Assembly (NCBI GenBank): GCA_000002445.1
Contig: CM000208.1
Coordinates: 1,824,001 to 1,888,000 of the forward strand
DNA: 64,000 nt
Origin: Trypanosoma brucei
Lineage: Eukaryota
Direction of reading: 5' to 3'
Of the stretch, positions 3,593 to 56,579 are shown piece after piece; within the stretch, counting starts at the first letter, position 1; each line of letters begins with the position of its first letter. The position numbers were made by a program, and so were the translations under genes. Below the pieces are notes generated by a model. It made no database searches. It was not told the DNA's origin and saw only the letters and a list, made by a program, of their open reading frames with translations.

Positions 3593-4516
3593 GCAAGCTA
3601 AGGTACTTCTCGACCTTTGCGTTGGGCAGCTATCACCCGACAGAGAAGAAAAAAAAATACAACGAATTATAAAAATTACTTTGATGAAAGAGCGGAAAAA
3701 AAAAAAAGAGCACGGCATGAGGCGAATTGAGGGAGCTTTCAAGAACACGTGGTATCGTTTTTTAAAAAAAAATATCATATCCTGGTAAATGGGCTATGAT
3801 ACACAATTGAGTACAGATACAAAGGTGGTACATATACCTATCTTTCCCACTTAAAATCATTTCTTCCTTGCTTGCCACCACCAAAAGGCAAAACAAAGAG
3901 GCAACAGTAAACCACCTCCATCTTATTATAATCCACTTGCCCTGTGCCCTACTCAGCACCCCTTTAGGGATCACAGCAATAAGTGGCTGCGGATCACCTC
4001 CCTTCTCATGTACAGTCACATATCACACACATATACACACATACATACATACATTTGCATAATGAGATTCAATGATGCACGATCGCACAAAACTACACGG
4101 AATAAAGGAATATCCACAGTATGGAGAAAAATTAGTAGTAAACAGTAGCAGCGCCAGAAGTGGTACCGTTAGTAGCGGTCATGGAAAAAAAAAACAAGAC
4201 CCTGGAAAATGAGAAAAGAAGGGGGAAAAAATAGGTTAAAACACTTCAGAAAAAAATAGAATGTGGAACAAAGAAACAAAATCGCGAAGGCTAAAGACAA
4301 AATAACCAGGAAAATAATAAAAGACAGGGAAACGGGAAAATGTGAGCACTGAAGTGAAAACAAAGCGCACAACAAAGGTCAACGGAAGTTGTTGTTGAAA
4401 TGCCATGCGTCCCCACTTTCCCCTTCCACCAGCTACAACCCACGCACAAACACCTCTCCATCCTCCCTCCTTCCGCACACATGGTCGATTTCGCAAAAAC
4501 AGAGGGAACTTTTCCT

Positions 4517-12508: not shown

Positions 12509-13424
12509 TACTGACTACGGTCCTGCACAGGGCAGAAATACAAAAACTCGCGCACCCTTCTCCGTCCCGTCTATGAATCCTGTGTATCTTCCCAGCAAGC
12601 GATCACAAAACGTAAAAAGAAAGGGGAAAAAATAGAGGCAAGTGACACACAATTTGCATTTTTCACTTCACCAAACCCAACGTAGAAGACAACTCCAAAA
12701 TGCGCAACGGAAGAAACCTGAATGTGCCCGCTTACACCACACGAGATGGCAGCTTCCGCATCCTCTTCCCCTCCGGGTTAGATGCTTGTGGAGAGAATGG
12801 AAAGGAAAGAACCGGCAGGAATTAAATAGCTACCCCTAATAACTTTGTATTCTGCGGCGCTCGGGTTGTACGTGGTAAAAAGATAAAACAAGTGCGTTGC
12901 AAACAATGGCAACGCAGAAAAGGGTCACAAAGAAGAGGTGAACTCCGGTATTCGCTTGCCCCATAAACTCAAACAAACAAACAAGAAATAAAAGGAGATG
13001 GGGGAAACAGCGATAACAATGTTAGTGACATAAGTAAATGGTGCAATAGAGGTCGACAATAAACCGAAAACCAGTGACAGAACTAATGAGGACCATTATA
13101 TTGGAGTAAAACAGGAAGTATAAAGTGGTAGTATACGAAAAGCGGGGTGAAGAGAACTAAAGCAATGGTAGTCAGACACCTGGCCGCAATTTATAAAGTG
13201 AGAAAGTGGAAAACGGTGCATGTTATGCTCTGGAACCCCACTACTTCGGACGTCTACGAAGAGACGAGCAGCCACGAAGAACAATAGCGATAACCTTACC
13301 AAAGAAGGTGCAACATGGAAGCAATTGCCTCCTCACATAGCAGACCATACAATGATGTTTGCCGCGGATACCGCGGCAAACCATAGTACACAAGCACGTT
13401 GGAAAAAAAACGTTGGAAGTTTCC

Positions 13425-18044: not shown

Positions 18045-18789
18045 CAGTTAGCTTTACACGCCTTTACTTGCACATCCTTGGGAAATTTAGACAGGAAGAG
18101 AAACGTGAGGATAACAGCAGACGCACAGTACATGCACCGGGGGGTTGGTGAGAAGCACCTGCAATGGAGCACCAGCAAGCACAGTCTCCGCTATATCCTT
18201 CGTGAAAAATACGAGCAGCACGCACATTAACTTTCAAACACGTTCATTTGCTATACTACTGGTGGTTCAAGAGCAGCATACCAGACCTCGCAACGGCGTG
18301 CCGCAGGTTGACGTCCCAGGCGTAGAAGGAGAAAAATTACTCGGCGTGGAGCAGATCAAAAGGAGGAGCCACAGCCCTGTTTTTCGCCCAAATGAGGTAT
18401 TCAATGGCCCCTTATGCGGAATGTTGCTCTTACTCCTCCCTTCACCACTCGGACGTTTACGTGCAGGATGGGGGTGTTCTACAAGCCGTCCCCACTAGTG
18501 AATGCCCCCTTTTCCCCTTCCCCCGGAGAGCAGCAGCAGAACAGTAACCTCAAACTGCCGTTCCAGCCCCCGCTGGTACCATTAAAGTGGAGCGTACAGG
18601 TGTCATACGATCCCCTCTCCTTTGGTGCTACCACCTACGCCTGACGTCCATTTGAAGCAGGACATGCTCTGCAAAATGCTGGATGCGTCTCCATGGCGCA
18701 ACGCATGCGTATCGGGTGCCATTATGAGAGGTCAGTGCCACCGGTACCCGTCGCTGCCACTTTTCCCCACCGGCCCTACCCTCGAACGG

Positions 18790-19050
18790 CTATAGGGGTG
18801 TAATACCCCACTCTGTTCGGTGCTTCCGCATTGCCTCACAAAAGGTCTTTGTGTACACCGATTCGTAAACCTCACCAGCAACTTCGCTCAGAGCCTGCCG
18901 GTAGGCTTCATTGCGCAACGCTTTTACTCGCAGCTCGTAATCCAGTGATGCCATCAGCAGTTCCTGGCCGGCACCGTCACCGTCACTGTCACTATTGCTA
19001 CCACAAGGTTGCGGCGTAATACCTAGCATTTTCTTTCCTCCTGTCTTCAC
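18790..19050 (-). CDS. Small hypothetical protein (86 aa)
   Basis: ORF on the coding strand of the array, in an otherwise empty inter-gene interval. No recognisable domain; could be spurious. Confidence 0.2.
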   Translation of the reverse strand: MKTGGKKMLGITPQPCGSNSDSDGDGAGQELLMASLDYELRVKALRNEAYRQALSEVAGEVYESVYTKTFCEAMRKHRTEWGITPL

Positions 19051-24882: not shown

Positions 24883-26142
24883 TCACGCGGCGAGTTTGCA
24901 TGCCAGCGCCGCTGCCTCCTCAAAGTTCTGTGCGGGATGCAGGGGGAGGCCGCTTTCCTTCAAGATACGCTTGCCTTCTTCTTCCTTGCTGCCGCTTAGT
25001 CGCACAACAACAGGCACCTCCCGCACCCCCTTTGACTTCAGCATTCGAGACGCCGCAACGATACCCTCGGCAATGGTGTCGCAGCGCATGATGCCACCGA
25101 AGATGTTCACGAGGATGCTGCGAACCGCCTCGTCACCAGTAATAATTTCAAACGCTGCGACAATCTGCTCTTTTGTCGCGCTCCCACCGACATCAAGGAA
25201 GTTTGCAGGCTTGCCGCCACCGTGGGAGATGAGGTCCATTGTGGCCATGGCAAGGCCAGCACCGTTTACGAGGCAACCAACGTTGCCGTCGAGGGCGATG
25301 TAGTTTAAGTCATACTTTTTGGCTACCACCTCTTTGGGGTCGATCTGCGTGGCGTCAGCGAGGGCAAAGATGTCATGCTGGCGGAACTCTGCGTTATCAT
25401 CAAACGACAACTTAGCATCAATGCACATCACATCGCCATTTTCCAGCTCCACTAGGGGGTTAATCTCCACCATCGTGCAATCCTTTGACTTGCCAACGTT
25501 ATACAGTGCCTTTATTTGCTCGGCAGCATTTTCAGCGGCGCGTCCCGTGAAGCCCAGTTCGTGTGCGAAGGTAAGGCAGTTGTCGTGGTTAATTCCCTCT
25601 TGGACGTTAATGCGCATCTTCTTGATCTTATCCGGCTGTTTCTGTGCAAGCTCCTCAATGCCCATACCTCCCTCTGCACTGCCAATGAAGACAGGTGAGG
25701 CGGTTTTGCGGTCGAGGAGCAGTGCCAGATACAATTCACGCTTAATTCCAGAAATCGCCTCAGTGACGTAGAGCCTGCTCACCTTCTGTCCCTTCGGTCC
25801 AGTCTGCTTCGTTACAAGAGTATTATTCAGCATACGGCGAGCGCATGCGAGCGCCTCCGCCGCATCCTTGCACACATGCACACCACCCTTGAAACCGTCA
25901 ACGAAGGTACCCATGCCGCGACCTCCTGCGAGAATCTGTGACTTGACGACTTTCTTATCTCCTTTGATCTTCCCGAGTGCCGCCTCCACTTCCTCAATAC
26001 TGGAGCACGCAACACCAAACTCCGTCTTGCATCCACCCTCCTTCAGCAGGGCCTTTGATTGGTACTCGTGAATGTTGAGGTAGCGGCACTGCGTCAGCGC
26101 AGCCTTCGTGGGAAGGCAGACACGACCAATGCGAGTAAACAT
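24883..26142 (-). CDS. Succinyl-CoA ligase (synthetase) beta subunit, mitochondrial
   Basis: ATP-grasp and CoA-ligase motifs (NIHEYQSKALLKEGG; VVKSQILAGGRGMG; NPLVELENGDVMCIDAKLSFDDNAEFRQ; LDGNVGCLVNGAGLAMATMDLI; ILVNIFGGIMRCD). Start reassigned to MFTRIGRV (rc ATG at 26142). The track ORF extends to 26403 through upstream non-coding sequence. Confidence 0.9.
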   Translation of the reverse strand: MFTRIGRVCLPTKAALTQCRYLNIHEYQSKALLKEGGCKTEFGVACSSIEEVEAALGKIKGDKKVVKSQILAGGRGMGTFVDGFKGGVHVCKDAAEALACARRMLNNTLVTKQTGPKGQKVSRLYVTEAISGIKRELYLALLLDRKTASPVFIGSAEGGMGIEELAQKQPDKIKKMRINVQEGINHDNCLTFAHELGFTGRAAENAAEQIKALYNVGKSKDCTMVEINPLVELENGDVMCIDAKLSFDDNAEFRQHDIFALADATQIDPKEVVAKKYDLNYIALDGNVGCLVNGAGLAMATMDLISHGGGKPANFLDVGGSATKEQIVAAFEIITGDEAVRSILVNIFGGIMRCDTIAEGIVAASRMLKSKGVREVPVVVRLSGSKEEEGKRILKESGLPLHPAQNFEEAAALACKLAA

Positions 26143-27622
26143 ACTCGTTACTGTAATGTGGCTTTGTAGTTTATACGATACCCTCAGCGAAATAAATAAA
26201 AAGTAACTTCTCCGCTCCCTTTCTGGACCTTTTTTCGTGGCTAGCGCAACCTCTGCCGTTTGGTTTGTGGAGACGGAAAGAAAGAAAGAGAGGAGAAAAA
26301 TGAAGGGTGAAGGAGAAGAAATCACCGAAAAAGTACCTGTCCGCCTCCGAGATCCCGGCCGGAGGCTACGGAAGCAAAACGAACGGTCCGTGTTACAGGT
26401 CATAACAAGAAATTAATCCGCGTAGCAGCAACGAATAGTCGATTCAAGCACTCAACGAGAACTTAGTATGATAACACAAGCTTACATCGCTTTTACCCGC
26501 TTTTGTATTGTTTCTCAATGATAAAGCGAACGACGGTCCTCTTCGGCAACCAACAACTGAGGCGGTGACCCCTACCACGGTATCAAGTCACGCAACAACA
26601 CTCATCGGTGCTGAGCACAAAAGGAAATAAGTCAGAACCACGTGGCAGGGGGTTACCGCGCGTGGAAAAAAAAAACGAACATGCTACTAGGTGGGATTTA
26701 AATGGTTAGTACAAGTGCTCTCCCGTCACCATGACGAACGCAGCGCATCGGTACACGCAAAGCCAGGCATAACCTACCTCTGCACAGAAAAGAAACAACC
26801 ATGACCTCAGGCACACACTTTGCCACATCCTTCCTCATTGCGCCATGTGCTGCAGTGCTGCGAAAGAGGGGAGATTAGTTAATGAAAACAGGGATTCTAT
26901 GTAGTGCATGCTAAAGACTTTCCCTTCCACTCGCTGTCCTCGATCCTCCTTCACACTGGCATCCGCCAACAGAGTGATTACCGTCGCGGGAAAAGGACAG
27001 TTTGTTATTGACACATATGAATGGAAGGAAGCCGTTCTAACAATAAAAATGAGAATAATTGGTGTGTATTCCGGGTGCTGGTGATCTCACTGATTTCTCG
27101 ACTGTCACAGTGGCCGAAACCAGTAACACGAAGCGGTGTATGCTGGCACAGAAAACCTCACCCAAAAAAAAACAAGGCGCACAGGTCCGCTCCACGCCAA
27201 GAAGACAAAGCACGGCAAAACGCAGGTGTACGGACAGAGTTGATTCTCAGTCAGAAGAACATCCAGCGGCCACGCCGCTCAGCCTATCAAACGACGTGAT
27301 GAGGAAAGAGCCTCAGCCGTGGCCCAGCGGAGCGCTAACCTCCTCTGTACATGCAGAGATATGGGGGTAATTAAATTGCACCGTTGCTACACCGAGGCAA
27401 CGCGTGGCGAAACAAGCTATCCGTTTGTCCTCCGAGAAGAATGCACCCCCGACAACCCATTACGCGGCCCAAACAACACTGATGGCGAGAAAGGAGGAGC
27501 GTTAAGTTTGAGGTGGATCAGGAATCAAAGGACTCGTGGTCGATACCAGTAGGCCGTGCCGTTAAATACACATGGCATAAACGCCTTAATGCGTGCCCCC
27601 CCTTCACACGCTCGAAAAACCT

Positions 27623-34293: not shown

Positions 34294-35349
34294 ACACCTT
34301 CACAGCAAAGAAGCACCACTCTAGTTGTCCCCCTCCTTACAACACACAAGCGATTCAGTAAACACGACGAAGCAAAAAAAAGGAACGATGTGAATAACCA
34401 CCAGCAAAGGGGGGGGGACAAAACGGCAGCCGAGTCGAAAATGACGAATAAACAGATATACCTACAGTATCACTGGCACCATTCATAGCCAGGGAACTGC
34501 CATCTCACCCCCTCCACACTAGGCCCCCACGCTAACGACACATCCGCTCACGCAAATCTCTCCACAGAAGACCCCGTGCTCACTCGAGAAAAACACAGAG
34601 GACCTCTCAAATTCCGAGAATAGTGCGGTGATATACACTCCAAACTCCTGACAAATCGCATTGTGCATCACAACCTTTAGTGGAAGAATTATGACACCAC
34701 AAAATAGGGCGTCCAACTGCGTGCACAACCCACATGAGCGCGTGGAAGAAAGCTCAAAGGGAAGCAGAGAGCATTTACGCACTGGCAGTGGTCTCACCCA
34801 TGATAATTTGCAGAAAAAAACGGTACTTGGTGCAACCCCACCATCTTGCTCACAGCAGTGAGCGATACAGCAACAAACCAACCACAGTTCCTCAGCATAT
34901 ACTACACCGTTTAAACACGTTGGACACCTAACATTCAATGTCGCCATGGTAGGTGGTGGTTTTGCGTTGTCGCGGAATGCAGGCGTCTACCACACAAACG
35001 GGTAGAGAAAGCGAGTAACATGGGCCGTCTGAGCTTTCGAGAACGCACAACCACAGCACAATCGATGTCGATTCACGATTGCAAGAAAGGAACAACCCCC
35101 GGTGTTGCACACCCCATCACTTGAAGCAACAAACATCGGAAGAGACCAAGTGAAGGGTTCGAATTGATCTACTCACAGCAGCAACGAGAACAGCGTGCTC
35201 ACCAATGCCTCTGAAGTCCAAGCAGGAGATTATTTAGTTACCAAAAGTTGAGTGTAAGAAAGGAACGAGATAGGGAACAAACAAAAGGGAGAAAAGAATA
35301 ACCGCCCTAGCGACGGAACAAACTCCCACCCCCTTTGGAAGCGGTCACA

Positions 35350-39695: not shown

Positions 39696-40598
39696 TTATT
39701 GTTGTACTGCTTTCTTCATAGAGCGATACACCCCTACGACAACTGCGTGGTCTCTTTCAAACGGTTCCAGTGAGGCTTGCTCCAGTGGCTTCAGACGGTC
39801 CTTTCTCAACTTATCAAGTTCAGCTGCGATAACCACGGGAGCATCGAGGGTTGAGTCGATACAGTTGGCTTTGATAGAAATTACGTAATGACCACCATTC
39901 TTAAGAAATGCCTGAGCATTTAACGCGAGAATCCGGGCCTGATCAGGTTGGGCAACATCCATGAAAATGCAGTCCACCATCGGCATCAGCATACGGTATT
40001 TCATTGGGTAACGAGCGTCCTCTATTATAGGAACGATGTTAGGCCTTCTCTTCGACATATCAACGAGGTCACGACCACTTCGGTTGGAGAACTCTACCGC
40101 GTAAACCATTCCTTCAGGTCCAACAAGATCGCTCACGTGGCTCACAGTCGTGCCGCTGGCGGCCCCCAGGTACAACACCTTTGAGCCAGGTTTCATGTGG
40201 ATGCTCCCTACTCCCGCATAAATGGCGGCAGCAAGCTTTGACCGGTATGGATTCCAAAGCCGATACTCCTTTTTCTCGTCACCACTCTGTGTTGCCCCTA
40301 CTTCTACACGCTTTTCCCCGTATACTGACACTCCAGGAACCATATTAAGCGTGCATAGTGAATCCGCTTTACCCTTAGAAATAAAGACACCGGGATGCAA
40401 CAAATGGGGTTCAACGACAACTTTGGCTCCAGCACCCCCACCACGACCCCCTCCACCACGGCCACCGCGGCCGTGGGGTCCAGCGTTACCGCCCCTTCCA
40501 CCTCCTCGTCCAGCGCCACCCCGACCACGGCTTGGTGCACCGCCACCTCTTCCGCCTCGGAATCCACTACCGCCTCCACGTCCAAACCCACCTCGCAT
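39696..40598 (-). CDS. NOP1: Fibrillarin (NOP1), box C/D snoRNP 2'-O-methyltransferase
   Basis: N-terminal GAR domain ([20 protein letters not shown]...), then a fibrillarin fold ([19 protein letters not shown]; [32 protein letters not shown]; IIEDARYP; [10 protein letters not shown]). Confidence 0.93.
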
Positions 40599-42945
40599 TT
40601 TTGTCCTTCCTAAATGACATAAACAAAGTTCGTGAACGATCGCAGAGACAAATAGAGCAGGTGCCGATTAATCGAGGTTTCATACGAATGTTTTTTTTAA
40701 AAAAAAAAAAAGGACTCAACGTAATAATTAAAAAAAGACGGTAATGCAGGTACTCTGAAATGTCGTCCTCGTCGTGACGAAACCGTTCAAAAGTATGTAA
40801 GGATTTAAATACATATGCCTCCGCTCACACATGCGACTAGTTTCAGCGACAAAGTGGATAGAAACGAGATGAACAGCTGATCCCTCATATATTTAGGGAC
40901 CCACCTTTAAAAATAAAAAAACTCCCTGTTCAAGGTGTGCTTGTACCGTACAAAGACCAGTGTTCTCATATAATACCTACCAATCCGCAAACTGATAGAC
41001 TCATCATTCCCAACGATGTTCCACAAAACGATAATGAAAATAGTCAGCGTAGGAAACAACGAAAAGCTCCTAGAAGGGGATCCTCATCTCCCACGGTTGT
41101 AACATAAAGAAAACAAGGTTAGTGGCTGTTCACAAATCCCTCATGAACGTTTCTTCTTTACGCACTCCGAAAAAAAAAACAGTTGACAGGTTAAGCATAA
41201 ACGCGAGACTAAAAGAAGTCAAAAATTCAACCTCGTTTTTTTTTTCTCACACCCCACTCTGCACTAAATATTCCTTGCAAACCTGAGTCACGGTAGTTTC
41301 ACGCTTTGAGCAAGGCTCACATTGAACAAAGCTGGAACTCCCTCCGTCAAGGGGGGGGAAATACTCTTGGAACTCTTTCACACGTGCACAACAAACAGCA
41401 GCCTTCCCTTTCGACACATCGTACCCTAAGTGGAAGGAGGCGGTGTGAAAAACCTCCTGTAAATAGCTTTCTAGCTTCGTGGCACGTAGTATACATGTTT
41501 AAGATCAAATAGCAACAATGAGACAGAAAACAATACCTCATCATACACACCTTTGAGGAGACTCTCTCTAAAACTCTCCCACAGTGTGTTAGATCATCTA
41601 GACGGGTTCTTGTTTAAATCCAGAAATGGTATGACAACGCAGGTACAATACTCTTTTGGTGAAGAGAACAAGACGGTATAAAACTGCACGGAGAAAACCG
41701 TATACTGGTACCTCGAACCTGCCCCATCCTTACTCAGAACGCTCACAGTGAAGAGACGGGGCTGCCATTGAAGCGCCCTTATGAAATGCCGTTCTACAAT
41801 GGAACACGAAACTGACGAGTCTTATGGGAAGGGGTGCAGTTACTCAACGGATATCCTCAGTTATTCAAAGAAAGGGGGAAACTGCTGGTCCTCCCCGAGG
41901 CCTCCCTTTGGCACTTAAGGCATAAAAGACACACTAAGAGATGACATTAACAGACCCAGGAGCGGAGGTACGCTCGGTGCGGAAGCGACGACAGCTTCAA
42001 GTCAAAGTCATGAGTACACGGCATCCGGTAGCGCGGAAATAGGTACACCGCCCCGCGGAAGACCCACTCCCTTAGAGTCAAACGAAAGAACCCCTTCACA
42101 ACCGCTTAACCACCCCTACCCCATTACCCACGGCAACTGAACCACACGTTTACACGCCCACGCACATGTGCATCCACCGCCAGCCCCGGGACACACCGCA
42201 ATGCACGAACAAACCAGAGAAGGGCAGCGACTAGAGCAGACCACTGGGGAGCAAAGACACCCGCAGCACCAGAAATCCAGTTCAAGCCTTCGTGCCCAAA
42301 AGAACGAGATTCTGATAACAGTCAGACACTGACAAACTGACGCGGAACATGAACCGGTGCCGTAGCGATGCAGCACCAACCGAACCGACGTGCCAATCGC
42401 CGCCGACCTATCGCAACCAAACAACAGCCTGGCAACCTGACGCTCCGCTTACGGAAACAGAACTATCCTTCTTTCGGTGATGGAACGGGGGTCAGACATG
42501 AGAGCGTCAAGGTCGAGAGGAGGCAACCAACGTCAATGACCGAAAACAGACACGGCGCAGCAAGCCCCGCCCACCCACAGTCCAGCAAAGCAAATACCGC
42601 TCCCCAGCAGCAAGTGCCGATTAAAGGATCAAACAAGCATCTATTTCTACAATTTTCTATCCTTTTCAAAAATACGTTGTGGTTCATACAAATGTGAGGT
42701 GTAACGTAAACCGACGGCACCGGTTAATTCCAGCCGGCAGGCTCGTACCCAATGGAAGGGATATGGAGAAAATTAGAAAAGTAAAAATGTTTTGAAATAT
42801 GTCTTTCGAACCTCTTACATAGCTACGAAGGCAGTTGCAGAAACCGACGAGGACGGCGTTTATCTTGTTTTGTTTCCTAAAAATAAAAACGTTATTTTGT
42901 TAGATTGTAGCCTGTTTCTATGGGTATTTTGGCTTTCCAGGGGGC

Positions 42946-43065
42946 AAGCCTTGCGCAGGGAGGTGTGAACGCAAGATCCTCAGGTGATTGTTCACTAGTG
43001 CAATACTATATCCGGTACTCCTTCGGGGAAAGTTTGCTACCCACCACGGGTGGGAGGTCCTTTTT
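42946..43065 (+). ncRNA. U4: U4 snRNA gene (spliceosomal)
   Basis: The 5' end AAGCCUUGCGCAGGGAGGUGUG matches the U4 5' region that forms U4/U6 stem II (human AGCUUUGCGCAGUGGCAGUAUCG). Stem-loops follow (UCCUUCGGGGA; CCCACCACGGGUGGG). The transcript ends in a T5 run (43061–43065) typical of Pol III termination. The 5' and 3' ends are approximate (+/- a few nt). Confidence 0.7.
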
Positions 43066-43514
43066 CGTCTGCGGACAGATGCAGTTTCTTTTTTCTTACG
43101 GGCTGCCTTGTGAATGCTGCGGCCCTAAAAGGCGAGTGACGCATATGGCCATTAACTGGACAAAGTGTAAGAGCTGAGCTGGGCCACACCCTTCCTCCCA
43201 TTGTACACCCCTCTTTCAGCATTTCGAGCTCCAACTGAAGCCGTGACTGTTTCCGTTAAGTTTTTCCACTTTTCCCCACAGTGCACAGGCAGTCTCTACA
43301 CAGCGTGTCAACATCGGTTTCGCTGAAGAGAAAACTGCCTCTGCGAAAAAAAAAATTTTGACCGTTAGTTGGGAAACCCTACCTTTTTTAACACCCCCAC
43401 TGTGTATAGTTTACCGCGGCCACCGGCGAAGGCCGACCGCTCCGACGCCCTTGCAGTAGTATGAAGAAGTAAAAAATAAGTTCTGACAAATTTTATCCCC
43501 TGTACCGCGTCGAA

Positions 43515-43585
43515 GCGCAGTTGGTCTAGTGGTAGAATTCTCGCCTGCCACGCGGGAGGCCCGGGTTCGATTCCCGGACTGCGCA
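43515..43585 (+). tRNA. tRNA-Gly (anticodon GCC)
   Basis: GCGCAGT-TGGTCTAGTGGTAGAATTCTCGCCTGCCACGCGGGAGGCCCGGGTTCGATTCCCGG-ACTGCGC-A. 7-bp acceptor stem, A box TGGTCTAGTGG, anticodon loop CUGCCAC, B box GGTTCGATTCC. Near-identical to eukaryotic tRNA-Gly-GCC outside the acceptor stem. A short T-run follows downstream. Confidence 0.93.
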
Positions 43586-45574
43586 GACTTTTCACGGCTC
43601 CACTTTACCCAAACGATAATAGTCTACCGCCGGGAAAATCACAGATGCAGCCGGCCTCGGGGCAAAAGCTGGCCGGTCGCAGCCCTTTTGGGCGTAGACG
43701 CTGGACACGCGCGCAACCAACATTGGTTGCAGCAGCGCCTCCAAAGTGACGGCGGGAAGTGGAACGGCGTGGACGAAACAAGGCTGCCAGCCGCGGGCGA
43801 TAGCGGGACAAACGGCTTCAACCACAAAGTTTCTGCCCGCGGTTCTGAAAACGCTTTCCTGCACCGAGTCGAGGCCTTCGTGCCTCACCAACTGGGGGAC
43901 ATATCGTGTGCCGTGCTGCCATACCTTGGGTCGGCGATTCCCCCGCGGTTAACTGTTGGAGCGTGAGGGACTGCGGGCGCACCCGCAACTCAGGATGACG
44001 GAAAAGTGGAAACGGAATGGCGGTGGGTTGCTGTTTGGGATCGAAAATCCGGGTTTACAAATCAAGAGACACTTCGGTCTCCATAAACACATGCGGGAGA
44101 GCTTTTCATGGTGATATAAAGAGTAGGGGGAACCCCTCTGCCCGAGGACAGCGAGAGTTAACGCCGGGGAACTAGAGCACTTCAGCCACGCCCCGACGCA
44201 TACCTTTTCCGGCATTTGGATGATGAGTATAAAGGATGGCTGCGCAGGAAAACAATTGGAAACTGGCAACCGCAATCGCATGGACGCGGAAAAGGAAAAG
44301 GATGTCCTGCCCAGCGCACATTCGCTGGCGGTGCGTGGGAGGCTGCTGCTGAGGGTAGTGAGGGGTTCAGTTTCTCTCTAAAGAACACCGGCGGCGAAAA
44401 TACTATACTCCGTGCAAGGATATAAAAAAGGTGGAAAAAAGGGACCGCAAACGACAAACGGAGCAACAGTATTTCCACCCACCAACCCCCGCGAAAGTTT
44501 AGGTACGTGGAGAAGGAAATCCCCGGGGCGACAGCTTACAGAAAATGCCTGCGACGCGTTGATTATTATCCCCTAAGTCTGCTGTTTACACACACGCACA
44601 CACATACACAAAAGGAATGCAGTTCCCTAAGAGGCCCCGGAATATAGATTTTTTCTTTCATTATTACTCGCCGCATCACCTCACTTATTCTAACCTTTCT
44701 ACAAACTCTCTTTATACTAAAAAGCGCCCCCAAAGAGCATCTTCACCCACAACGTGCAGCACGCTCAAGGCACAGTGGCTGGGCTCTCCTCAGCACTCCC
44801 CTATCGAGCTCTCCTTTACTTTCGGTACGCGTGCGAACGGCGAAATAGTTGCTGGCATGCGTCTTTAGCGGCGCACCCTCCCTTTTGTCCCGGAATTTGC
44901 AAACCCACCGCCTTATGCACTCAACAAGCTGCTTCAGATTAACCTTACCGGTTGACCTTTCCCCTCAGCGCCGTAGCGAGCCGGAGCTCACACCGGAGAG
45001 CACGGAAGCAAATACACAGACAGTAAGGAAGGCAAACACGCGAGCCGCAAGTGACCGCGATCAGGCGAGCCAAACCACTTACGCTTCATGAGTTTTGTAG
45101 TACGGGTGTGAACGATGCCCTCAGCCCTGCATAAACACTCAATGACAGCATAGCGCAGCGCCGGTCCGTAGTCGAACGCATCCCACCGCACCGAACACCG
45201 CAGCGACCATGGAGAAGTCCGAGGGCGTTGGAAAAGTCACGCGCTGTGCACGTGGGTTACGTTGGACGCACGTGCACGCTCAGCAACCCATTCACTGGGA
45301 ACGAACTCATGCCTTCTGTTCTACAAAGGTGAGAGGGGAGAAGACACAGCTACGGGCATACGCCAGCAAAAAAGTATTCATACAAGCTTCCAGCGAGTCA
45401 AGAAATTTTAAAAAAAAAACACGAGGTACTTGGAGAACAACATACGAAGGGATGATGGCTCGATCCCGCCTCACAAACAACGAGCATAGATAAGTTATGT
45501 TCTACATGTTTCCTCATCTGCAAACCAAGGGCTGCCAAGGAAGATCGGGGCAGAAACTGTGTATTTTTCTCCTT

Positions 45575-47044
45575 TCAAATAACAGCTAAAAAGTGGTCGG
45601 TAGCGACGATCGCATGCCCCCCTGAAAGAGCGTACTCGCAGGAGTCATCGTCAACTTCGCGGTCTTGGAGAAGCTTATCCGCACGCGCGACGGCAGCAAC
45701 GGACAAACGCTCACCGCCCTGAACAGCCTCGACGCTTTGGCCCTCACCCTGAAGAAAAAGAAGGGACTTATTTGATGCGTCCTTTCCTGGGATGAGAAGA
45801 ACCACGAAGTGATTAAAGCAAACTAGTCGGACCTCACTTCGCGCGGCTTCGAGCAAAGCATCTCCTGCAAGCGACGGAAAGGTGGTCTTGATGGCCACCC
45901 CCAACCTCTCTGACCACCGCATTTTCCCAAACCAAGTGGACTCTCGTTTGTCCTTTATCCAACGGCCGAGTGCTCCGTACCTATCCATCCTCTGTTGCTG
46001 ACCATCACCAATGCAACGACTTCGAGAAATAGGAAGGCCGCACGATAGCCAGTCCATGTCGCTTGTGAGCAAGACTGAACGATTGGCCGAGCACCAGATC
46101 GACACAATGCGTGCTTCTCCTGGCCCCAGTTCCGGACTTATACGCTCTACACGAAGCGGAAAATACATGCTTTCCGCTGACCCCCAAGCGGCCCTCAGCG
46201 TTTTGATAGCATACGAATCCAAATTTTCATTCCCCCTTGGTTGAGGTGAAACGGAACGGATAGTAACGGGGGTTGGTGTACCAACAGCTTTCGTGGAGCC
46301 GAGGCCGAGTTGCCCGCTGGTATTGTCTCCGAAGGCCAGTAGTTTTCCAGTTTGCAGTAACACGAAGGAGTGATTCCCCGCCGCGGCGATTTGCCTTATC
46401 GGCAGTCCGAAAAGGAGGCGGATAGATTTGAACGACGCCTGTAATGGGGGTTTTCGCTTCCCACCCAGTTGGCCACTCAGACCAAGGCCACAACCGTACA
46501 CCGCGTTGCACTTCCTTGTCATCAGCAACGTGTGATGGGATCCGCAAGACACAGCAGTAATTGGCACACAAAGGCGCCTACCTTCAATCACGTCTCCTCC
46601 ATCGACATCGTAACTACCGTTACCGAAGCCACTGATCATCTTCGGGGCAGAAAGTGCTGGAACCCTGTCGTCACTGTCTTCGCCACCTTCCGCTTTGTGA
46701 CTGGTCCACACACTGCCGTCGCCCAACTGCCCATAAATGTTACTGTAACCAAATGAATGCACAGTTCCGTCTTCCTTGCAAAAGACGATGTGTGTGTCAC
46801 CGGCTGCAACATCCTTAACGTTATCCTCCCCATTTTGCACGGTGCTTCCGTGATATTCGGGGGACCCCGGGGCCAACAATATCAAACAACCACTTCTGAA
46901 CAGGGCGACTCCGTAGTGTTTCGCGCAATACGCCACCTTCAGAAGTGTATCACCCGCCTCTAGGCGTTTTCCGAGAATTTCTATCGTCTCTTCACGACCA
47001 TATGTGGCGGCCGAACATGCGCCAACCACAGCATAAGGCGCCAT
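45575..47044 (-). CDS. RCC1-repeat (beta-propeller) protein
   Basis: Repeated RCC1 signatures: YGQLGDGS, SGQLGGK, TSGQLGLGS, HSFVLLQTGKLLAFGDN, HTLLMTRKCNAVYGCGLG. Confidence 0.8.
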   Translation of the reverse strand: MAPYAVVGACSAATYGREETIEILGKRLEAGDTLLKVAYCAKHYGVALFRSGCLILLAPGSPEYHGSTVQNGEDNVKDVAAGDTHIVFCKEDGTVHSFGYSNIYGQLGDGSVWTSHKAEGGEDSDDRVPALSAPKMISGFGNGSYDVDGGDVIEGRRLCVPITAVSCGSHHTLLMTRKCNAVYGCGLGLSGQLGGKRKPPLQASFKSIRLLFGLPIRQIAAAGNHSFVLLQTGKLLAFGDNTSGQLGLGSTKAVGTPTPVTIRSVSPQPRGNENLDSYAIKTLRAAWGSAESMYFPLRVERISPELGPGEARIVSIWCSANRSVLLTSDMDWLSCGLPISRSRCIGDGQQQRMDRYGALGRWIKDKRESTWFGKMRWSERLGVAIKTTFPSLAGDALLEAARSEVRLVCFNHFVVLLIPGKDASNKSLLFLQGEGQSVEAVQGGERLSVAAVARADKLLQDREVDDDSCEYALSGGHAIVATDHFLAVI

Positions 47045-53658: not shown

Positions 53659-54791
53659 GCGTGCAACAACCTCGTTTCACGAAGGTGCGCGCAGGCTCGA
53701 TAATGCAGCAGCGACCGAAGCCCTACTCCTTCACCGGAAGTATCGCATAGGAAAAATTAATGGTAGAAGTAATAGGGAATGTGTGAGTGAGTCTGTGTAA
53801 ACAGAAAATCTGCAGAAGCACAAAGAACAACACGATCCATACACCCCATCACGGTAGTGATACCTGACACGGAAAAATATATATGTAACAACAACCCGTG
53901 CCACCAGTCGTTTCGCAGAGACTCAACAACTGCAAAATCCCAACGACAACGATGAGGGGATAAAACAAACAATTGAGTGCAGCAATACCATGCCTAACCC
54001 CACACCGAACCTGATACAGACACACACACCTTTAACAACACCGCCATGTGGATACAGCAACCGATAGCCCGTGTGCATGCTGCTTAGCGGCGCATATACA
54101 TACGCATGCACTAAGAGGAAGTAACAGAAAAAAAAAGCAGATGGAAAGAACAGGAGCAGGTGTGTGTGGGAAACTGGTTTACCGGGAGTTAGTGGACGCC
54201 TCTCGACAACGTTAGTTCGGACCCAACTGCTGTTGTCAACATGTTTTGCCGAGTCATACGTTTTCCGTTCGCGCCAAAATGAGGCCTACAACGTGCCTTG
54301 TTGTAACAAGTGATAGAATGTCTAGCTTCGCTCGACTTTCTGTGGCCCGGGTAACGTTCTCATCACGCTACAAATGTGTGAGACGCTGGCATGAGCTCGT
54401 TTTAATAACACGCATTGTAAGGTACGGTCACACACAACAAGGACCATCCCAATGATCTCTGCCTCTACCTTTCATCAAAAGCGACAGCAGGAAAAGTTTA
54501 CGGGAACGATACGGAGACGATTGGTGTGACACCAGTGGTAATGCGTGTCAGCACTCCAGCAGCTGGCGCATACAACCATTGTCTGTCACTGAGCAACAAC
54601 GCGCCTGGGTCAATTCTACCGCCTGGCGCATAGACTAATGAGAAGCTTGAGAAAAAAAGTGTTCTTTTTGTGCAGGCGAAGACACTTGGTTGCACCTCTA
54701 TAAAAACTCAAAGATAGTGAGGACACGTAACGCTGGTGGCACAGCACTCGTCAGCTGTTGGACAGAAACCCTTGCAAAGGGGATCAGTTTT

Positions 54792-54908: not shown

Positions 54909-56579
54909 CTATCCCTGCAGTGGCGCAGCTGATTCACCTGCGACTAATGTCGGAAATGGATTCTGGCGTGACAAAACAACCACTTTATGCTCGCATGAGA
55001 TGTACCCACGAAGTAGACCAGTAGATATAAGCTTTGCCACCCACCAAGTCATTTCGCTATCTGTTAAGGCAAGACCATCGTCAATCTCGTCCTCGTTCCG
55101 TTGCCGTTTCGGCCTCCTTTCGGTCGTTTCACGTGCGGCGCTGTCTTGATCGGCTATCATTTTCCCTTCCCTTGCAATGTTTATATACATTGTAGTGAGC
55201 ACCCGCAGTGGTATCCGTGTACTGTCTTCACCACAAGCATCCATTGTGGCGTGCACCCGGGCCACTAGAATGAGAAAACAAAGCAATTTTGCACGCTGTA
55301 ATATAAAATACACGCCCCTTCTTCGCAAGATCGGTCCATACGCATCCACGGCGATGCTGAAGGCACGCGGGTCTCCCCGCTGTATAGCTTTAAGGATCGG
55401 CTGAAATATGTAGACGATGAGGTCATCACGTTGCTGGATCTCCTCTGGCGGCATGCGACCGCTGACAACCCCCGCAACGGTTAAGAAAAATCTCACGCGC
55501 TGCTTGTTACGATGCTGCACGATGTTGCCACTACCTGGTGGTGGGAGTAGTTGATAGGCCTGCTGCAACGCAGCGAATGCCTCGCGCGCCTGGTGATCGT
55601 AGAGCGCCACACGGCCCTTGTAATAGTAAAAAGTCAGCACCTCCGATGTCATGTGCTGCGCCGGCTTAAGCACTTCCCTGCCCGCGGCACCCCCGGTTTC
55701 GGTCACTCGTTCGGCCTGCACGATGGTGTTGATAAGCACTCGGCACTGATGAACGTTGTATCGACGGAACAATATGCTCAACAGCCCATTACACACCGCA
55801 AGGGCACCACGACGTCTAGAAAACTCCGGTGAGAGGCCGGGGTCCACAACCTGAAGAGACTGTAGTAGCTTCCGCCAACTTCGCACTATCCGTCCTGTTG
55901 CCTCGTCTATCACACCGGGGCTTGCGTCGCGAGCGGCACACGGAATGCGATGGACAAAGTGAAGAAGTAAAAGGGTGTCCCAGCCAACGGTGCCAACGGT
56001 GGTGTTGCTTTGTCGATGCTGATAGTTGGTCCGCCGCATCGAGTGAACCTCCTGGAACACTTCGAAAACGTGCAAAAGTCCAAGAGCAAAGCGGTCCTTT
56101 GTCAACTGTGTTATCCACTGCTTCCGCTCTTGCCTATCATCGCCGCCCTTCGAGTCGTCTGCATCTTTTATGGAGTACGACTCCGTGTAATACTTTACTA
56201 GTGCGCCGGTGATTGCGACCCGAAGCACCACCTCAACAAATAATTGCCGCTCCTTCACGTCATCAGCATGGCCGCTGGGTGGCACTCGTGTCTCCCCAAC
56301 TGCTTGTTCAACGCTGTCTAACAAACGCTGTCGCAGTTGATCGATGGCAGGCTCAATGCCACTATGTTCTGGCATATCTCGAATAGTCAGTGCTTCACCC
56401 ATTTCCGCATGCACAACAAAATCCGTCAGCAACATACCGTTGCGTGACGCGATCCCCTCCGCTGCGCGTTGCATCCACCGTGGTGACACCTCAAACAGTG
56501 GTGACTGTTGCGCACCCTTCTTTGCCGGCATGACTTCACCTAAAGACACAGATATAGGCAGTATGCGTTTTTTTTCCAT
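54909..56579 (-). CDS. PCI-domain protein, PCID2 / Thp1 / CSN12-like
   Basis: 556 aa helical protein. C-terminal winged-helix tail ...LLRGYISCEHKVVVLSRQNPFPTL matches the characteristic CSN12/PCID2 ending (GYISH..K.VVSK.NPFP). Assignment from motif memory only. Confidence 0.5.
   Translation of the reverse strand: MEKKRILPISVSLGEVMPAKKGAQQSPLFEVSPRWMQRAAEGIASRNGMLLTDFVVHAEMGEALTIRDMPEHSGIEPAIDQLRQRLLDSVEQAVGETRVPPSGHADDVKERQLFVEVVLRVAITGALVKYYTESYSIKDADDSKGGDDRQERKQWITQLTKDRFALGLLHVFEVFQEVHSMRRTNYQHRQSNTTVGTVGWDTLLLLHFVHRIPCAARDASPGVIDEATGRIVRSWRKLLQSLQVVDPGLSPEFSRRRGALAVCNGLLSILFRRYNVHQCRVLINTIVQAERVTETGGAAGREVLKPAQHMTSEVLTFYYYKGRVALYDHQAREAFAALQQAYQLLPPPGSGNIVQHRNKQRVRFFLTVAGVVSGRMPPEEIQQRDDLIVYIFQPILKAIQRGDPRAFSIAVDAYGPILRRRGVYFILQRAKLLCFLILVARVHATMDACGEDSTRIPLRVLTTMYINIAREGKMIADQDSAARETTERRPKRQRNEDEIDDGLALTDSEMTWWVAKLISTGLLRGYISCEHKVVVLSRQNPFPTLVAGESAAPLQG

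What the first reader, a model, noticed from the sequence alone, without database searches (positions are those of the whole stretch)
40599..45574. Pol III island (U4 snRNA + tRNA-Gly) in a 5-kb ORF-free gap inside a unidirectional Pol II gene array
Every protein-coding gene in the 64 kb is on the minus strand. The only long stretch with no credible ORF (about 40.6–45.6 kb) carries two plus-strand Pol III-type genes, a U4 snRNA (42946–43065) and tRNA-Gly-GCC (43515–43585). These point against the direction of the surrounding array. In kinetoplastids, Pol III genes embedded head-on in Pol II polycistrons are associated with transcription termination and re-initiation and with special chromatin (H3.V, H4.V, base J). 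This gap is therefore a candidate internal boundary of the transcription unit rather than plain spacer.
Basis: partly seen in the sequence, partly recalled or inferred. Interest (0 to 1): 0.6.

Follow-up and report, generated by a model that had tools for sequence, protein, structure and literature searches.

The report
Known trypanosome transcription-unit boundary at U4/tRNA-Gly
The 5-kb gene-free gap really does hold a U4 spliceosomal RNA gene and a glycine tRNA gene and marks where one long trypanosome transcription unit ends and the next begins, but this exact boundary on Trypanosoma brucei chromosome 10 has been mapped and published since 2010.

Summary
The window is T. brucei TREU927 chromosome 10 (window coordinate + 1,824,000). 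All long ORFs are minus-strand, and 40599-45574 is the largest ORF-free gap (4976 bp; next largest 1890 bp). tRNA-Gly(GCC) lies at 43515-43585(+).

The U4 call at 42946(+) is also right, although Rfam gives no U4 hit at all. The evidence is a 20/21 match to the published L. major U4 primer, 83-92% conservation confined to 42946-43055 in four other trypanosomes, compensatory changes in the 3' stem, and an annotated 110-nt snRNA at this position.

This is the divergent tRNA-like A/B-box promoter of U4 (42783-42841, minus strand), which runs co-directionally with the Pol II array.

The boundary interpretation is supported but already published:
- Kolev 2010, Table S14: unit "next to snRNA" starting at fibrillarin.
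- Maree 2017, Table S5.
- Staneva 2021, Table S8: tRNA-Gly in sTTR_13, bound by all eight RNAPIII/TTR factors.

Two refinements. The island is inverted relative to T. cruzi, T. rangeli and T. theileri, so head-on orientation is not conserved. The gap is also transcribed into three processed sense ncRNAs. Verdict: correct, ordinary, already known.

The parts
45575..47044 (-). RCC1-repeat 'chromatin binding protein' gene (Tb927.10.7510 / Tb10.6k15.3150), last gene of the upstream Pol II unit
   Evidence: Pfam RCC1 repeats. 100% identical to the T. equiperdum entry. At 1470 bp it equals Tb427.10.7510, listed as the last gene of the 'next to tRNA' unit.
42872..45320 (-). Tb10.NT.184: low-abundance processed sense ncRNA (major poly(A) site at window 43139) that runs antisense across tRNA-Gly and, by its annotated 3' end, across U4
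   Evidence: Kolev 2010 Tables S7 and S13. Its 5' end falls right after an AG with a 71% pyrimidine tract upstream.
43515..43585 (+). tRNA-Gly(GCC) gene with internal A and B boxes; T4 terminator at 43589-43592
   Evidence: ARAGORN. Rfam RF00005, 59.2 bits. 97.5-100% identical in T. cruzi, T. theileri and T. rangeli. Listed as sTTR_13 in Staneva 2021 Table S8.
42946..43055 (+). U4 snRNA gene (110 nt); T5 Pol III terminator at 43061-43065
   Evidence: 20/21 match to the L. major U4 primer. 83-92% identity confined to this interval in four species. Three compensatory pairs in the 3' stem. 12-nt complement to U6 stem II. Annotated as a 110-nt snRNA in Tb427. No Rfam U4 hit.
42783..42841 (-). Divergent tRNA-like promoter element of U4. 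B box GGTTCGAAAGA at 42812..42802, T5 run at 42787..42783, candidate box A TCTGCAACTGCC at 42841..42830 (-105 from U4 +1)
   Evidence: An antisense GGTTCGA lies at -131 to -159 in 5 of 5 species, with a T-run 23-25 nt after it in 5 of 5, amid unalignable sequence. The signature occurs at only three places in the 64 kb. The architecture is described in PMC4950102.
41917..42741 (-). Tb10.NT.183: first processed sense transcript downstream of the island. It contains the most GT-rich sense-strand stretch of the window (42037-42336), a candidate Pol II start region
   Evidence: Kolev 2010 Table S7. AG acceptor at 42743-42742; the T-rich tail of the tRNA-like element serves as its polypyrimidine tract. 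Sense GT 0.69, z 3.7.
40717..41820 (-). Tb10.NT.81: second processed sense ncRNA, between the island and fibrillarin
   Evidence: Kolev 2010 Table S7. AG acceptor confirmed.
39696..40598 (-). Fibrillarin gene (Tb927.10.7500 / Tb10.6k15.3160), first protein-coding gene of the downstream Pol II unit
   Evidence: Pfam Fibrillarin, 3e-102. Listed as the first gene of the 'next to snRNA' unit.

Best explanation
The gap is the already-mapped head-to-tail boundary between two Pol II polycistronic units on T. brucei chromosome 10. The upstream unit ends at the RCC1-repeat gene and the downstream unit begins at fibrillarin.

Between them lies a small Pol III island with three elements: tRNA-Gly(GCC), the U4 snRNA gene, and the divergent tRNA-like A/B-box element that serves as the U4 promoter.

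Likely mechanism (inferred, following the published model): TFIIIC/TFIIIB/Pol III complexes and the nucleosome-depleted, factor-rich chromatin they create impede Pol II arriving from the RCC1 side. Pol II then starts again in the roughly 2-kb GT-rich stretch between the island and fibrillarin.

The block is leaky or diffuse. Low-abundance, trans-spliced and polyadenylated sense transcripts cover almost the whole gap, including the antisense of tRNA-Gly and U4.

Shown here: the identity and exact anatomy of the three Pol III elements, the exact mapping of the window to published coordinates, and conservation of the island in this gap across Trypanosoma.

Taken from the literature: the start-site and termination-region calls, and factor occupancy.

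Inferred: the roadblock mechanism itself.
For: Identity of the parts.

Window = Tb927 chr10 + 1,824,000: ORF coordinates match, and the three published transcript 5' ends each fall exactly after an AG acceptor, against a background frequency of 0.059.

Boundary calls: Kolev 2010 Table S14, based on 5'-triphosphate RNA enrichment. Maree 2017 Table S5. Staneva 2021 Table S8, sTTR_13 with all eight RNAPIII/TTR factors, together with their statement that Pol III genes may act as boundaries at head-to-tail units.

Enlarged gap in other species: the island-bearing gap is also the largest intergenic stretch in T. cruzi (2.4 kb) and T. theileri (4.5 kb).

GT content: sense-strand GT is higher downstream of the island than upstream in all three species, and the highest GT window of the 64 kb lies there.

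U4 promoter: TFIIIB subunits bind the U4 tRNA-like element in L. major.
Against: Processed sense transcripts NT.184, NT.183 and NT.81 together cover 45320 to 40717, apart from 131 bp. The polypyrimidine tract of the NT.183 acceptor lies inside the tRNA-like element, so some Pol II must cross the island or start inside it.

133 of 154 annotated termination regions have no Pol III gene, so Pol III genes are not necessary for termination.

The GT-rich signal is only marginally above other intergenic stretches (0.69 against 0.68 and 0.67).

I found no locus-specific H3.V, H4.V or base-J data.
Confidence: 0.85

Rival explanations
1. Reversed causality. The boundary is set by chromatin and DNA sequence (a GT-rich promoter with H2A.Z downstream, H3.V/H4.V/base J upstream). 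The Pol III genes are passengers that settle and persist in an already open, ORF-free region and contribute little to stopping Pol II.
For: Most termination regions (133 of 154) lack Pol III genes. The island has been inverted and has gained or lost tRNA-Thr and tRNA-Pro between lineages without loss of the enlarged gap. Pol III gene loci show weak synteny in general. NT.184 shows Pol II traversing tRNA-Gly head-on.
Against: U4 has stayed in this particular gap across Trypanosoma species whose flanking sequence no longer aligns, with tRNA-Gly beside it in all but T. vivax. RNAPIII/TTR factors mark specifically the termination regions that carry Pol III genes. tRNA genes have been described as strong stops for Pol II.
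Confidence: 0.25
2. Plain spacer. Pol II runs through without functionally meaningful termination or re-initiation, and the two Pol III genes merely sit in a long intergenic region.
For: Near-continuous coverage of the gap by processed sense transcripts.
Against: 5'-triphosphate RNA enrichment defines a new unit starting at fibrillarin. A termination region is annotated over tRNA-Gly. The gap transcripts are 10-25 times less abundant than fibrillarin mRNA (0.31-0.71 against 7.5 per cell).
Confidence: 0.07
3. The gap hides an unannotated protein-coding gene or a decayed mobile element, and that explains its length.
For: Automatic gene calls exist in the equivalent gap of T. grayi and T. rangeli. 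An ingi-like retroelement lies beside U4 in T. vivax.
Against: The longest gap ORF is 145 aa and has no Pfam hit. Outside the two RNA genes there is no DNA conservation. The other species' gap ORFs and the T. vivax retroelement proteins give no tblastn match in the gap. There are no significant repeats.
Confidence: 0.03

Closest known systems
Head-to-tail PTU boundaries of T. brucei that coincide with Pol III genes (Siegel 2009, as cited in the papers read here; Kolev 2010; Maree 2017; Staneva 2021: 20 termination regions overlapping tRNA/snRNA genes)
   Same: It is one of them. It is listed as 'next to snRNA' (Kolev Table S14, Maree Table S5) and as sTTR_13 (Staneva Table S8).
   Different: Nothing essential. 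Staneva's table credits only tRNA-Gly, because U4 is not among the snRNAs annotated in that assembly. The role of the U4 tRNA-like element is not discussed there.
Trypanosomatid Pol III snRNA genes driven by a divergent upstream tRNA or tRNA-like element (T. brucei U2, U3, U6 and 7SL; L. collosoma U4; L. major U2 and U4)
   Same: A divergent B box (GGTTCGA) followed by a T-run upstream of the snRNA, conserved in five Trypanosoma species. The snRNA ends in a T5 run.
   Different: Box A at the canonical -105 position matches the consensus poorly (TCTGCAACTGCC). The A-to-B spacing is short (29 nt in T. brucei) and variable (26-54 nt across species). Function was not tested here.
tRNA genes and extra-TFIIIC sites acting as chromatin boundaries or insulators in yeasts
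   Same: Pol III factor-bound, nucleosome-depleted elements that separate Pol II domains. Staneva 2021 draws the same analogy.
   Different: Here the elements separate polycistronic units rather than heterochromatin from euchromatin. TFIIIC in trypanosomatids is a reduced four-subunit complex (PMC10781861, title only).

Membership tests
U4 spliceosomal snRNA | Scores above threshold with the Rfam U4 covariance model (RF00015) | tested here: not met
   No RF00015 hit at the gathering score, at E<=10 on 6 kb, or at E<=10 on 211 nt. Given the other rows, I interpret this as a false negative of the model for the short, divergent kinetoplastid U4.
U4 spliceosomal snRNA | Sequence identity to an accepted U4 of a related organism | tested here: met
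   Window 42946-42966 matches the L. major U4 (LmjF.36.snRNA.01) forward primer at 20 of 21 positions. The reverse primer region (GGGTGGG...TTTTT) matches the 3' end in the same arrangement. A 110-nt snRNA is annotated at this position in Tb427.
U4 spliceosomal snRNA | 5' end complementary to U6 (U4/U6 stem II) | tested here: met
   Nucleotides 4-15 (CCUUGCGCAGGG) form a 12-nt perfect complement to the U6 segment CCCUGCGCAAGG. In 500 shuffles the mean was 6.4 and the maximum 11.
U4 spliceosomal snRNA | Conserved secondary structure: 5' stem-loop, Sm-like site, 3' stem-loop | tested here: met
   98.8% of cells pair, against 31-57% when partners are slid. The 3' stem has three pairs with compensatory double changes. 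The 5' stem-loop helices are invariant, so they say nothing either way. A K-turn (tandem G.A) reading is my inference only. The AAAGUUUG Sm-like site is conserved as AAnnUUUG.
Trypanosomatid Pol III snRNA promoter (divergent tRNA or tRNA-like element) | B box on the opposite strand upstream of the snRNA, with tRNA-like geometry | tested here: met
   GGTTCGA lies at -131 to -159 in 5 of 5 species, and a T4-T6 run starts 23-25 nt after the B-box start in 5 of 5. The pattern occurs at three places in the 64 kb, against 0.72 expected matches.
Trypanosomatid Pol III snRNA promoter (divergent tRNA or tRNA-like element) | Box A about 104-106 bp upstream of the snRNA +1 | tested here: inconclusive
   At -105 the antisense sequence is TCTGCAACTGCC, a weak match to TRGCNNAGTGG. 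A better A-box-like TAGCTATGTAAG lies at -121 but abuts the B box. The literature notes that A boxes of tRNA-like elements are divergent in sequence.
Trypanosomatid Pol III snRNA promoter (divergent tRNA or tRNA-like element) | Required for snRNA transcription and bound by TFIIIB/TFIIIC | not testable with these tools
   Only indirect evidence is available: Bdp1 and Brf1 ChIP on the L. major U4 tRNA-like element.
tRNA-Gly(GCC) | Cloverleaf, anticodon, internal A and B boxes, downstream T-run | tested here: met
   ARAGORN. Rfam, 59.2 bits against a threshold of 29. B box GGTTCGATTCC followed by T4.
Head-to-tail Pol II PTU boundary (termination region plus start region) of T. brucei | Same-strand coding genes on both sides of an enlarged ORF-free gap | tested here: met
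Head-to-tail Pol II PTU boundary (termination region plus start region) of T. brucei | Experimental start-site signal (5'-triphosphate RNA) and an annotated termination region | not testable with these tools
   Taken from the literature: Kolev 2010 Table S14, Maree 2017 Table S5, Staneva 2021 Table S8, sTTR_13.
Head-to-tail Pol II PTU boundary (termination region plus start region) of T. brucei | H3.V, H4.V and base J upstream; H2A.Z, H2B.V and H4K10ac downstream | not testable with these tools
   I found no locus-specific data, and the Schulz 2016 supplements do not list the flanking genes. General statements only.
Head-to-tail Pol II PTU boundary (termination region plus start region) of T. 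brucei | GT-rich sense strand in the start region | tested here: inconclusive
   The highest 300-nt sense-strand GT window of the 64 kb is 42037-42336 (0.69, z 3.7), but other intergenic stretches reach 0.67-0.68. The downstream-over-upstream asymmetry (0.585 against 0.53-0.55) is seen in three species. The link between GT richness and promoters is from my own knowledge (Wedel 2017).

The most novel reading that the evidence does not exclude
The effective barrier may be the non-coding tRNA-like A/B-box element (an 'extra-TFIIIC-like' site) rather than the transcribed Pol III genes, and it may work regardless of orientation.

Three observations fit this. First, the 131-bp interval between the annotated 3' end of NT.184 (42872) and the SL acceptor of NT.183 (42741) contains exactly that element. 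Second, NT.184 shows Pol II passing head-on through tRNA-Gly. Third, the whole island is inverted in Stercoraria while the enlarged gap persists.
Probability: 0.2. Interest if true: 0.4.

Novelty: already known. Interest (0 to 1): 0.15.

Why it matters
As a scan result it matters little. The genes are annotated, and the boundary has been in published tables since 2010.

It has three minor uses:
1. It documents that Rfam's U4 model misses trypanosome U4, so 'no Infernal hit' is not a valid refutation test in kinetoplastids.
2. It shows that the Lister 427 annotation used in a recent chromatin study apparently lacks U4 at sTTR_13.
3. The lineage-specific inversion of the island is a natural experiment suggesting that the boundary role does not depend on head-on Pol III/Pol II orientation.

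Tried and rejected
- Rfam at three sensitivities gave no U4 hit. I reject this as evidence against U4 because four independent lines of evidence agree that it is U4.
- The single-sequence fold of U4 has a z-score of 0.10. This is uninformative, since U4 works paired with U6.
- Whole-molecule RNAduplex of U4 against U6 is not better than shuffles. I replaced it with the longest-perfect-complement test.
- A literature search for remembered T. brucei U4 probe sequences found nothing. Only the L. major primers matched.
- A search for a tRNA-Thr(AGT) remnant between U4 and tRNA-Gly found none: score 17, against a shuffle maximum of 26.
- Repeats that might mark inversion breakpoints: only short, chance-level pairs.
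- Retroelement or protein remnants in the gap: none.
- Supplements of the base J/H3.V paper: the flanking genes are not listed.
- U4 is not within 10 kb of the RCC1 homologue in Leishmania enriettii or Phytomonas. No outgroup is therefore available to polarise the inversion.
- The bacterial promoter/terminator scan and the protein-structure tools were not used, as they are irrelevant here.
Full report
ORGANISM AND COORDINATES. The RCC1-repeat protein encoded at 45575-47044(-) is 100% identical to a T. equiperdum 'chromatin binding protein'. ORF coordinates in Kolev et al. 2010 (PMC2936537) match the window with a constant offset of +1,824,000. Three examples are Tb10.6k15.3370 at 1,825,109-1,827,778 (window 1109-3778), Tb10.6k15.3250 (window 24883-26403) and Tb10.6k15.3100 (window 54909-56579). 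I tested this offset on the sequence. The published 5' ends of three transcripts, converted to window coordinates, each fall immediately after an AG on the minus strand, with 64-71% pyrimidines in the 58 nt upstream. The background frequency of AG is 0.059, so three out of three by chance is about 2e-4. The window is therefore T. brucei TREU927 chromosome 10, about 1,824,001-1,888,000 in v4 numbering.

CHECK OF THE OBSERVATION. All independent ORFs of at least 150 aa are on the minus strand. The stretch 40599-45574 (4976 bp) is by far the longest without an ORF; the next longest is 1890 bp. Its longest ORF is 145 aa, and its four ORFs over 100 aa have no Pfam match. tRNA-Gly(GCC) lies exactly at 43515-43585(+) (ARAGORN; Rfam tRNA, 59.2 bits). 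The flanking genes are fibrillarin (39696-40598) and the RCC1-repeat gene.

IS 42946-43065 U4? Rfam gives no U4 (RF00015) match at the gathering score, at E<=10 on 6 kb, or at E<=10 on only 211 nt. Four independent lines of evidence say otherwise.
(i) The published forward primer for the annotated L. major U4 gene LmjF.36.snRNA.01, AAGCCTTGCGCAGGGAGATGT, matches window 42946-42966 at 20 of 21 positions. The reverse primer region matches the 3' end plus the T-run.
(ii) BLAST of the whole gap against syntenic loci of T. vivax, T. cruzi, T. theileri and T. rangeli finds only two conserved blocks, tRNA-Gly and 42946-43055. The latter shows 83-92% identity that starts exactly at 42946, and its flanks do not align.
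(iii) In the five-species alignment A1, my proposed structure pairs in 98.8% of cells, against 31-57% when partners are slid. The 3' stem-loop carries three different compensatory double changes.
(iv) Nucleotides 4-15 form a 12-nt perfect complement to the U6 stem-II segment, with a maximum of 11 in 500 shuffles.
In addition, Maree et al. 2017 list 'Tb427_10_snRNA_1', 110 nt, plus strand, 2352 bp from the fibrillarin ATG, compared with 2348 bp here. The gene is 42946-43055, and its T5 terminator is at 43061-43065. The Rfam miss is a false negative.

A THIRD POL III ELEMENT. Trypanosomatid snRNA genes are transcribed by Pol III. They depend on A and B boxes in a divergently oriented tRNA or tRNA-like element, with box A about 104-106 bp upstream. 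For U4 this was shown in L. collosoma, and TFIIIB binds the U4 tRNA-like element in L. major (PMC4950102). Upstream of U4, in sequence that otherwise cannot be aligned, all five species have GGTTCGA on the opposite strand at -131 to -159. Each has a T4-T6 run beginning 23-25 nt after the start of the B box, which is the geometry of a tRNA 3' half. In the window the B box is at 42812..42802 and the T5 run at 42787..42783. The pattern GGTTCGA-N14-22-TTTT occurs at only three places in the 64 kb, all in the gap: tRNA-Gly, this element, and an unexplained site at 41694-41719(-). Box A is uncertain. TCTGCAACTGCC lies at the canonical -105, and a better-looking TAGCTATGTAAG lies at -121. This element is on the minus strand, co-directional with the Pol II array, so 'the Pol III genes point against the array' is only two-thirds true.

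Kolev et al. 2010 used libraries enriched for 5'-triphosphate RNA to define putative Pol II units. Their Table S14 lists Tb10.6k15.3160 (fibrillarin) -> Tb10.6k15.3540, minus strand, as 'next to snRNA'. The preceding unit, Tb10.6k15.3020 -> Tb10.6k15.3150, is listed as 'next to tRNA'. Maree et al. 2017, Table S5, carries this over to strain 427, with gene lengths (903 and 1470 bp) and a gap length (4978 against 4976 bp) that match the window. Staneva et al. 2021, Table S8, lists the chr10 tRNA-Gly(gcc) as overlapping single termination region sTTR_13 and as bound by all eight RNAPIII/TTR-associated factors (BDF7, ELP3b, PHD2, PHD4, TFIIS2-2, DOT1A, TRF, TBP). Their text states that head-to-tail termination regions often coincide with Pol III genes that may block Pol II. 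Padilla-Mejia et al. 2009 had already made the general argument for tRNA clusters inside gene clusters. I found no locus-specific data for H3.V, H4.V or base J.

REFINEMENTS.
(1) The gap is not silent spacer. Kolev's Table S7 places three trans-spliced, polyadenylated minus-strand transcripts in it: NT.184 (window 45320->42872, major poly(A) site 43139), NT.183 (42741->41917) and NT.81 (41820->40717). They are present at 0.31-0.71 copies per cell, against 7.5 for fibrillarin. NT.184 runs antisense through tRNA-Gly and, by its annotated end, through U4, so tRNA-Gly is not an absolute head-on block. The only uncovered interval (42742-42871) contains the tRNA-like element. Its T-rich tail is the polypyrimidine tract of the NT.183 acceptor, so some Pol II must cross the island or start within it.
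(2) The most GT-rich sense-strand stretch of the window (42037-42336; 0.69, z 3.7) lies inside NT.183. This fits a GT-rich start region, though only marginally above other spacers.
(3) Orientation is not conserved. In T. cruzi, T. theileri and T. rangeli the order in the direction of Pol II transcription is RCC1 > tRNA-like(-) U4(+) > tRNA-Thr(AGT)(-) > tRNA-Gly(+) [> tRNA-Pro(AGG)(-) in T. rangeli] > fibrillarin, so U4 and tRNA-Gly are co-directional with Pol II there. In T. brucei, and for U4 in T. vivax, the block is inverted. The island-bearing gap is nevertheless also the largest intergenic stretch in T. cruzi (2.4 kb) and T. theileri (4.5 kb). tRNA-Thr is absent from the T. brucei gap with no remnant. 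In T. brucei, tRNA-Thr(agt) and tRNA-Pro(agg) lie about 36 kb upstream in sTTR_14.

MECHANISM AND RIVALS. Best supported (0.85 for 'this is the known boundary at a three-element Pol III island'): Pol III factor complexes and their nucleosome-depleted chromatin impede Pol II, which then re-initiates downstream. The causal step is inferred. The main rival (0.25, and not mutually exclusive) is that chromatin and sequence define the boundary and the Pol III genes are passengers. It is supported by the 133 of 154 termination regions that lack Pol III genes and by the rearrangements seen here. 'Plain spacer' (0.07) and 'hidden gene or mobile-element remnant' (0.03) are contradicted and respectively.

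VERDICT. The feature is a documented member of a documented class. Novelty: already known. Interest: 0.15. The residual novel angle is that the tRNA-like A/B-box element acts as the actual, orientation-independent barrier. It is speculative (about 0.2).

Noticed in passing
window 41694-41719 (-): A third B-box-plus-T-run match (GGTTCGAGGTACCAGTATACGGTTTT) lies inside the gap. With the two real Pol III elements, these are the only three such places in the 64 kb. It has no T-arm pairing, is not conserved in other species, and has no obvious snRNA-like gene at about +104-160 on the plus strand. It may be chance (0.72 matches expected) or a decayed tRNA-like element.
   Followed up: partly
L002 12375-13075; L003 12100-14054; L005 12720-13591; L001 16002-16260: The U4/tRNA island is inverted relative to the flanking Pol II genes between Salivaria (T. 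brucei, T. vivax) and T. cruzi, T. rangeli and T. theileri. tRNA-Thr(AGT), and tRNA-Pro(AGG) in T. rangeli, accompany it only in the latter group. In T. brucei those two tRNAs lie about 36 kb upstream in sTTR_14 (Staneva 2021 Table S8).
   Followed up: partly
window 42946-43055: Rfam 15 RF00015 (U4) fails completely on trypanosome U4, even on a 211-nt search at E<=10. It is a model false negative that would affect any Infernal-based annotation of kinetoplastid genomes.
   Followed up: yes
window 42946-43055 (equivalent in Lister 427 v9, near Chr10_core 1.888 Mb): Staneva 2021 Table S8 lists only U2 and U6 as annotated snRNAs. U4 next to tRNA-Gly in sTTR_13 is not listed, so it is apparently unannotated in that assembly.
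   Followed up: no
window 42742-42800 (-): The T-rich terminator tail of the U4 tRNA-like element (TTTTTACTTTTCTAATTTTCTCC) doubles as the polypyrimidine tract for the spliced-leader acceptor AG of Tb10.NT.183 at 42743-42742. A Pol III terminator and a Pol II RNA-processing signal therefore overlap.
   Followed up: partly
L001 16981-19906: In T. vivax an ingi-like non-LTR retroelement (endonuclease and reverse-transcriptase domains) lies directly beside U4, and no tRNA-Gly is present within the locus.
   Followed up: no
window 12695-12967, 18201-19049, 34450-35119, 53793-54697 (all -): Other longer intergenic stretches of the window coincide with Kolev 2010 novel transcripts Tb10.NT.78, NT.79, NT.80 and NT.82. 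'ORF-free' spacers in this array are therefore commonly occupied by processed non-coding or small-ORF transcripts.
   Followed up: no
window 40656-40671 and 42609-42624 (+): A 16-nt direct repeat, AGCA(G/A)GTGCCGATTAA (94% identical). One copy lies just upstream of the fibrillarin ATG and the other near the 5' end of NT.183. It is probably chance.
   Followed up: no
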